From Eledone cirrhosa (Eukaryota): 64,000 bases of DNA. A program made the translations under genes and the position numbers. The stretch covers positions 4,216,001 through 4,280,000 of the forward strand of contig OZ024747.1 of assembly GCA_964016885.1 (NCBI GenBank). The letters are read 5' to 3'. Below are positions 57,214-57,728 of this stretch, in pieces; the stretch's first letter is position 1, and every line of letters begins with the position of its first letter. The notes beneath the pieces are model-generated. The model did not search any database and had not been told where the DNA came from. It saw only the letters and a list, made by a program, of their open reading frames with translations.

Positions 57214-57728
57214 TGATTTAAAACTGCACTATCCACAAGTGTTTTTTAGCCTTCATATCATGTTCTCCTGTTTTATCTGATGAAAACACAAATATTATTG
57301 CATGATGATGTTCGTTTTTGAAATGCGCATAATAAAATACATGGAACTCCTTTAACGATCTTTTTTATATATATATATATATATATATATATATATATAT
57401 ATATATATATAAAAAAGATCGTTAAAGGAGTTCCATGTATTTTATTATGCGCATTTCAAAAACAAACATCATCATGCAATAATATTTGTGTTTTCATCAG
57501 ATAAAACAGGAGAACATGATATGAAGGCTAAAAAACACTTGTGGATAGTGCAGTTTTAAATCAACATATGTTGATTTAAAACTGCACTATCCACAAGTGT
57601 TTTTTAGCCTTCATATCATGTTCTCCTGTTTTATCTGATGAAAACACAAATATTATTGCATGATGATGTTTGTTTTTGAAATGCGCATAATAAAATACAT
57701 GGAACTCCTTTAACCATCTTTTGATCTT
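57214..57728. mobile_element. Three copies (+,-,+) of the TGCGCA hammerhead element; ribozymes at 57271-57337 (+), 57440-57506 (-), 57629-57695 (+)
   Basis: Complete core, 6-bp stem I, palindromic stem III; palindrome centre at 57567/57568. Confidence 0.82.

What the first reader, a model, noticed from the sequence alone, without database searches (positions are those of the whole stretch)
57214..57728. Triple zig-zag (+,-,+) array of a complete hammerhead element
Seen: copies 1 and 2 are inverted about a (TA)n tract; copies 2 and 3 form a ~155-bp-arm palindrome with no spacer. Copy 3 keeps the longer end shared with the solo copies at 21220 and 59804, while copies 1 and 2 share a derived end (aacgatc), suggesting two successive fold-back events. 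The two same-strand ribozymes are 358 nt apart, so cleavage at both could release a highly self-complementary RNA (inference).
Basis: partly seen in the sequence, partly recalled or inferred. Interest (0 to 1): 0.72.

Follow-up and report, generated by a model that had tools for sequence, protein, structure and literature searches.

The report
Penelope retrotransposon stub with mirrored arm
This is a short back-to-back insertion of a Penelope-type jumping gene, whose central junction recurs hundreds of times in this genome, plus one extra mirror-image arm that likely arose when DNA folded back on itself in a TA repeat; its predicted self-cutting RNA motifs would mostly be locked in double-stranded RNA rather than release a small RNA.

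Summary
The +,-,+ array is there as described. The unit is the 163-bp pseudo-LTR (type I hammerhead, 3-bp palindromic helix III) of a (TA)n-inserting Penelope-like element whose 821-aa ORF carries most Hydra-clade motifs. Only copy 1 is unusual (0 of 50 such palindromes had a third copy). It shares a private end with copy 2 and is most likely a DNA fold-back duplicate across (TA)22; mirror duplicates across short (TA)n recur at other insertions, three repeating an internal junction. So one fold-back, not two. Release of a 358-nt RNA is unlikely: folding both + ribozymes costs about 100 kcal/mol. A related back-to-back locus was retro-copied with 40 A-to-G changes, pointing to dsRNA editing instead. 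An assembly artefact is not excluded. The scan has reported these two-arm palindromes many times on other DNA of this genome.

The parts
57094..57213 (.). (TA)n tract, left part of the target microsatellite
   Evidence: sequence
57214..57366 (+). copy 1: pLTR nt 5 onward with the derived 3' end; extra mirror arm, likely a fold-back duplicate of copy 2; private T>C at 57313 (stem II)
57259..57343 (+). type I hammerhead motif of copy 1 (C3 57277; predicted cut after 57331)
   Evidence: structure on 77 distinct family copies
57367..57410 (.). (AT)22, self-complementary centre of the copy 1/2 inversion
57411..57567 (-). copy 2: untailed arm of the two-arm insertion, derived 3' end; hammerhead C3 at 57500 (predicted cut after 57446 on -)
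57550..57585 (.). head-to-head junction centred at 57567/57568, identical at 563 places in the genome
57568..57730 (+). copy 3: pLTR of the tailed arm; hammerhead C3 at 57635, predicted cut after 57689
57731..57825 (+).
57826..57890 (.). (TA)n tract, right part of the target microsatellite
   Evidence: sequence

Best explanation
The array is an ORF-less two-arm insertion of a Penelope-like retrotransposon in a (TA)n tract (copies 2 and 3 plus tail), to which copy 1 was likely added by one DNA fold-back duplication across the self-complementary (TA)22. Shown: the unit is the pLTR of a family with a full RT-endonuclease-type ORF; the 2/3 junction is common; the two arms of such palindromes are near-identical to each other; either arm of long insertions can be the longer one; copy 1 carries copy 2's private end. 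Inferred step 1: the element's enzyme cuts both strands in (TA)n, each 3' end primes a copy of the same source RNA from one of two start sites (pLTR end, tail end), and the two cDNAs join head-to-head through the self-complementary CATATG. Inferred step 2: a break or nick in the left (TA)n lets the 3' end snap back and copy the neighbouring arm (copy 2) up to 4 nt short of the palindrome centre, where it rejoins the (TA)n by TA microhomology. Whether this happened during integration or later is not resolved. Inferred step 3: any read-through RNA forms long hairpins; only copy 1 has a brief window (about 90-100 nt of transcription) to fold, as a weak monomer, so the usual fate would be dsRNA and A-to-I editing, not ribozyme excision.
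For: Family and ORF: pLTR- ... ORF ... pLTR+tail in long loci, 821-aa frame; Atlas neighbours carry GIY-YIG/RVT_1/HTH_animal at shares of 18-99%. Two-arm rule: 48 of 50 exact-junction loci on C1 give exactly two pLTR hits and one tail hit, none has a tail on both sides or a third pLTR within 800 bp; arms differ by 1.1 of about 132 nt within a locus against 8.8-9.2 between loci (45 of 50 scored). Untailed arm reaches further in 8 and tailed arm in 2 of the 10 long loci I could call, of 17 fetched, which fits two separate RT runs; two adjacent RT start sites define the tail in vitro (PMC11167929). Fold-back: private shared end; same layout at L115 and short inverted stubs at L117, L129/L142, L149; 3 of 15 tail-end loci (L134, L136, L141) mirror a finished insertion including its internal junction, which a plain element RNA does not contain; at the window, L115 and L136 the mirror copy inherits changes that the sister arm lacks. 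RNA fate: folding energies; metazoan PLE hammerheads are inactive as monomers and weak as dimers (PMC4209133); L151 is a 1.75-kb copy of the back-to-back locus L152 with 40 A>G of 58 substitutions, 1 of 40 after a G.
Against: No read or second assembly confirms copy 1. Mirror cases are few, and the genome-wide counts cover only short spacers, so frequency at 44-nt spacers is unknown. 9 of 45 palindromes have an arm closer to another locus than to its partner, so not all come from one template. In L115 and here the extra copy ends at pLTR nt 9 and 5, close to the 5' edge of the pLTR, which an RNA-templated origin would also explain. Pfam gave no hit for three ORFs. Hammerhead covariation is not above shuffles (1 pair changed on both sides, 143 of 500 shuffles as high). 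Folding energies ignore tertiary contacts, proteins and dimers in trans.
Confidence: 0.6

Rival explanations
1. Copy 1 is RNA-templated: a transcript of copy 2 running into (UA)n self-primed or was re-inserted next to its source, or one RNA primed both ends of a short excised (TA)n piece during the same integration.
For: Copy 1 ends at pLTR nt 5 and the L115 extra copy at nt 9, near the point where many arms end; PMC3846280 (passage) states that self-priming on a sense template would give tail-to-tail repeats; read-through RNAs of such loci can be retro-copied (L151).
Against: Other extra stubs stop at nt 139-141 or inside the tail (L117, L129, L149); mirrors at L134, L136, L141 repeat the inverted internal junction; copy 3, the sister arm, lacks the derived end, so a single source RNA does not carry it.
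Confidence: 0.2
2. Copy 1 is a fold-back chimeric read or assembly artefact at the (TA)n palindrome.
For: Long (TA)n tracts and palindromes are error-prone in long-read data (own knowledge); copies 1 and 2 differ by only one substitution and the 5' end.
Against: The inversion is 190 bp and returns to different flanks; copy 1 has its own substitution and junction; comparable mirror structures elsewhere carry diverged arms (L115, L136, L141); the only assembly gap in the window is at 1194-1393.
Confidence: 0.1
3. Copy 1 is an independent solo insertion into the same (TA)n tract, whose end was later made identical to copy 2 by hairpin-mediated conversion.
For: The family targets (TA)n, and different insertions do sit back-to-back across short (TA)n (L143, L147, L148).
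Against: Needs two events; copy 1 is identical to copy 2 but for one base along its whole length while random family arms differ by about 9 of 132 nt.
Confidence: 0.07
4. One reading: the array is a ribozyme-bounded cassette that releases a 358-nt double-hairpin RNA (retrozyme- or siRNA-precursor-like).
For: Both + cores are intact and 358 nt apart; the product would be 98% paired; either ribozyme alone costs only 5.8-6.5 kcal/mol in the full RNA.
Against: Both together cost 101.5 kcal/mol; copy 1's fold is lost once the RNA passes about 57460; the junction is single-copy, so there is no sign of amplification; in L151 reverse transcription ran through an uncut hammerhead-bearing arm.
Confidence: 0.05

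Closest known systems
EN+ Penelope-like element insertions with inverted 5'-truncated copy and one-sided tail (Craig et al. 2021, PMC8557442: passages, section 11, supplement rows; Arkhipova et al. 2013, PMC3846280: passages)
   Same: pLTR with hammerhead, head-to-head inverted arm, tail on one end only, microsatellite target, complex tandem/inverted arrays.
   Different: ORF-less stub form with one exact junction in 563 places; tail 95 bp rather than 30-40 bp; extra tail-to-tail mirror arm across (TA)n, which PMC3846280 treats as the uncommon orientation.
Hydra clade of C-terminal EN+ PLEs (PMC8557442 section 11; Hydra-1_Obim is listed for an octopus in File S1)
   Same: DKT, CxCx5C linker, CxxC and CxH around the conserved E and N, C-terminal endonuclease, (TA)n insertion, hammerhead.
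   Different: RW(T/I) instead of RWK; unit about 4.1 kb with a long repeat-bearing 3' UTR instead of <3 kb; no phylogeny run.
Poseidon_Ac in vitro (Frangieh et al. 2024, PMC11167929; parts 1-2 of 4 read)
   Same: Two RT start sites bounding the tail, both strands cut and extended, hammerhead cleavage not required.
   Different: Different clade; two-arm joining and mirror duplicates were not shown in the parts read.
Metazoan non-LTR retrozymes (bioRxiv 10.64898/2026.07.22.740005, part 1 of 5 read; PMC4209133 parts 1-2 of 4)
   Same: Small non-coding unit with a type I hammerhead of PLE origin; two same-strand ribozymes a few hundred nt apart.
   Different: Retrozymes are head-to-tail tandems; here the two same-strand ribozymes are separated by an antisense copy that blocks them, and the array is single-copy.
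Fold-back inverted duplication at self-complementary DNA (hairpin-capped break repair; own knowledge, search listing only)
   Same: Short palindromic centre, inverted copy of adjacent DNA, microhomology rejoining.
   Different: Very small scale (about 150 bp) and next to a retrotransposon end whose endonuclease targets the same (TA)n.

Membership tests
EN+ Penelope-like elements | Single ORF with RT and GIY-YIG-type endonuclease linked to this pLTR | tested here: met
   821-aa frame between pLTRs in L046, 775 aa in L060; RT-like YRDD and C-terminal IY..YFG..R..NH read by eye; Atlas neighbours with GIY-YIG/RVT_1; Pfam direct scan negative
EN+ Penelope-like elements | pLTRs in direct (partial tandem) and inverted arrangement | tested here: met
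   L060 direct; most other long loci inverted
EN+ Penelope-like elements | Tail on one end of the insertion | tested here: met
   48 of 50 palindromes with one tail hit, none with two; L048 has two
Hydra clade | DKT motif, CxCx5C linker, CxxC and CxH flanking E/N, C-terminal EN | tested here: met
   HSDKTNN, CNCRIKNKC, CNLCLNE, INRR..CLH in P0001 against section 11, by eye
Hydra clade | RWK motif | tested here: inconclusive
   RRLRWT in L046, RRLRWI in L060: RW kept, K not
Hydra clade | (TA)n insertion and detectable hammerhead | tested here: met
   arm ends; motif
Hydra clade | Placement in the RT phylogeny | not tested
Type I hammerhead ribozyme | Core CUGANGA / GAAA / UH with helices I-III | tested here: met
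   all three copies; 98.2% of cells paired in 77 distinct copies, N7 and the helix I bulge variable; 59 of 77 keep both core blocks
Type I hammerhead ribozyme | Covariation beyond relatedness | tested here: inconclusive
   changes are mostly one-sided (A-U/G-U); 143 of 500 shuffles reach the both-sides count
Type I hammerhead ribozyme | Self-cleavage | not testable with these tools
   needs an assay; Rfam models do not hit
Non-LTR retrozyme | Head-to-tail tandem of ribozyme monomers | tested here: not met
   orientation +,-,+
Non-LTR retrozyme | Amplified as a unit / circular RNA | tested here: inconclusive
   copy-1 junction occurs once; RNA not examined

The most novel reading that the evidence does not exclude
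Cutting of (TA)n by the Penelope endonuclease leaves self-complementary 3' ends that can snap back and copy the freshly made cDNA arm, so mirror-image zig-zags are a built-in by-product of two-ended PLE integration; the arrays are transcribed in the germ line as long dsRNA, hyper-edited and re-inserted, making them a heritable record of both the integration intermediate and ADAR activity.
Probability: 0.25. Interest if true: 0.55.

Novelty: new member of a known kind. Interest (0 to 1): 0.27.

Why it matters
The locus itself is probably neutral debris. Its value is as a clue: how PLEs form their tandem and inverted structures is named as an open task in PMC8557442 (passage), and mirror duplicates across the (TA)n target, if tied to integration, give a prediction that the published in vitro system (PMC11167929) could test. 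It also warns that pairs of same-strand hammerheads in such genomes are not by themselves retrozymes.

Tried and rejected
Rfam at gathering: 0 hits in the window; at E<=10 only generic hairpin matches, no hammerhead. DNA search of the pLTR in the own genome returned nothing because common words are skipped. Sequencing runs: no RNA holder listed. Logan contigs of four runs (two samples, one study) cover the family sequence deeply but no listed contig covered copy 1's private 5' junction or the derived end; this says nothing either way (repeats filtered, possibly other individuals). Search for an alternative haplotype through the right flank failed: 57950-58380 is itself a high-copy repeat. The 57313 variant occurs at 6 places, so it is not diagnostic for reads. 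Tail-to-tail junctions were counted only for short spacers; the reversed control gave 4 against 6 hits and only L129 was a true case; L114, L116, L126-L128, L131 are not this family and were dropped, L130 is a scrambled family locus. L118 (six short arms) is better read as a tandem repeat of a palindrome unit than as fold-backs. Timing of the mirror events from private variants: about 8 changes after and 3-4 before duplication over five loci, which fits both 'at integration' and 'any time later'; unresolved. Pfam scan of three ORFs: no hits. Monomer fold z-score -0.91, no support from stability. The product was cut one base too far right (57333-57690 instead of 57332-57689); this does not change the result. 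Literature searches listed no paper on mirror duplicates at PLE ends or on octopus PLE palindromes; most subscription papers are not in the library, and supplements other than File S1 of PMC8557442 were not seen. Scan look-ups for triple or zig-zag arrays found nothing specific.

Full report
Observation. The sequence shows three copies of a roughly 160-bp unit in +,-,+ order. Copies 1 and 2 are inverted about (AT)22 (arms of 190 nt, 96%), copies 2 and 3 about 57567/57568 with no spacer (155 nt, 99%; perfect over 147 bp). Each copy holds a type I hammerhead core with a long helix II and the palindromic ATGCGCAT helix III. Copies 1 and 2 share an end with a C>G change and a 4-nt loss; copy 1 also lacks the first 4 nt and has a T>C at 57313. 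It missed the 95-bp tail at 57731-57825 and that the 59804 copy has a short second arm.

What the unit is. A 36-nt core word occurs 5,736 times in the 3.0-Gb genome. Among the first 100 listed hits, 36 neighbour pairs within 10 kb are -/+, 1 is -/-, none is +/-. Seventeen longer loci were fetched: they contain an open frame of up to 821 codons between pLTR copies. The protein has an RT-like YRDD, DKT, a CxCx5C linker, a C-terminal GIY-YIG-like region with CxxC and CxH, matching by eye most features that Craig et al. give for the Hydra clade (PMC8557442, section 11), whose members insert in (TA)n and include an octopus family (supplement row). Pfam gave no hit for three ORFs; Atlas neighbours at 0.95-0.98 carry HTH_animal, GIY-YIG and RVT_1 in part of their members. 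RWK is only RW here and no tree was built, so clade membership is likely, not shown. L060 gives the full order pLTR, tail, ORF, 3' UTR, pLTR, about 4.1 kb.

Copies 2+3 are the ordinary product. Their exact 36-nt junction occurs 563 times. All 50 listed C1 examples were fetched: 48 give two pLTR hits and one tail hit, none has two tails or a third pLTR within 800 bp; in the 45 scored, the arms of one locus differ by 1.1 positions against about 9 between loci, though in 9 of 45 some foreign arm is closer than the partner. In long insertions the untailed arm reaches further in 8 and the tailed arm in 2 of the 10 loci I could call out of 17, which a single snap-back of one cDNA does not explain but two RT runs from both cut ends do. 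Inverted pLTRs with a one-sided tail are known PLE features (PMC8557442 passages; PMC3846280 passages; opposite-strand hammerhead pairs in PMC4209133), and two RT start sites bounding the tail with both strands cut and extended were shown in vitro (PMC11167929). Earlier scan notes on other DNA of this genome reached the same reading.

Copy 1 is the only unusual part. Of 16 hits with the aacGatc variant, only copies 1 and 2 also have the shortened end, and copy 1's 5' junction is unique. So copy 1 derives from copy 2. Facing ends across short (TA)n recur: at untailed ends L115, L117, L118 and L129 (4 of 6 junctions, 1 of 6), at tailed ends 18 junctions in 15 loci. Of those 15, three (L134, L136, L141) mirror a finished insertion including its internal junction, one (L149) has a 51-bp inverted stub, four (L143, L147, L148, L133) are two different insertions back to back or a copy of such, and seven have arms of 7-29 bp that I did not classify. 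At the window, L115 and L136 the mirror inherits changes absent from the sister arm. This points to DNA-templated fold-back from the self-complementary (TA)n. An RNA route remains possible because the extra copies here and at L115 end near the pLTR's 5' edge. The timing is unresolved.

Would it release a 358-nt RNA? Predicted cuts lie after 57331 and 57689. With helix I enforced and the core left open, a monomer costs 2.8-3.3 kcal/mol; once a + transcript passes about 57460 copy 1's fold costs 36 and then up to 100 kcal/mol; in the full RNA either ribozyme alone costs 5.8-6.5, both together 101.5; copy 2 on the - strand costs 90. Metazoan PLE hammerheads showed no cleavage as monomers and low cleavage as dimers (PMC4209133), and the Poseidon one needs protein and is dispensable for insertion (PMC11167929). 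Across 77 distinct family copies 98.2% of paired cells are kept, but covariation is not above shuffles. Double cleavage is therefore unlikely. A related case shows a different fate: L151 (C1) contains a 1.75-kb collinear copy of the back-to-back locus L152 (C12), host flank included, with 40 A>G among 58 substitutions, only 1 of 40 after a G. This fits (own knowledge of ADAR neighbour preference) a read-through dsRNA that was edited and then retro-copied through an uncut hammerhead arm; it is one case.

Artefact. Not excluded. The private substitution and junction of copy 1, the return to different flanks and the diverged mirrors elsewhere argue against it; the window's only gap is 56 kb away.

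Verdict. A known kind of insertion, very common here and already noted many times by the scan, with one rare mirror arm. The mirror-across-(TA)n pattern was not found in the papers listed and may inform PLE integration, but at this locus there is no sign of function. Interest 0.27.

Noticed in passing
L151:3841-5571 (G000:C1, about 120.057-120.059 Mb) versus L152:4375-6026 (G000:C12): Retro-copy of a back-to-back compound locus with about 750 bp of host flank; 40 A>G of 58 substitutions, 19 of 70 A sites in the antisense pLTR arm but none in the sense 3'UTR+pLTR arm. The one-sided editing is unexplained.
   Followed up: partly
L046:1415 and L049:4449: The long arms of two insertions stop almost exactly one unit length from their start (unit positions 260 and 156), as a circular or unit-length template might give; 2 of 17 loci.
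   Followed up: no
L118:1327-1711: Six 46-bp arms alternating -,+ with folds at the helix III palindrome and at (TA)6; a 100-bp palindrome unit repeated three times.
   Followed up: partly
L136:1120-2375: Whole insertion mirrored across (TA)9 with two further direct 231-bp repeats inside.
   Followed up: partly
window 59800-60032: Older-subfamily two-arm insertion: full untailed arm (-) joined to a 65-bp tail stub (+).
   Followed up: partly
window 22677 (+), 29057 (-), 49612 (-): Hammerhead-like CTGATGA...GAAA motifs of other repeat families.
   Followed up: no
window 56803-57132 and 60505-60835: Two inverted copies (92-97%) of another repeat, SINE-like by recall, flank the region 3.4 kb apart.
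   Followed up: no
window 57950-58380: High-copy repeat, at least 40 copies at 96-97%.
   Followed up: no
L060 unit positions about 2983-3542: The element's 3' UTR holds a 111-bp tandem repeat of variable copy number.
   Followed up: no
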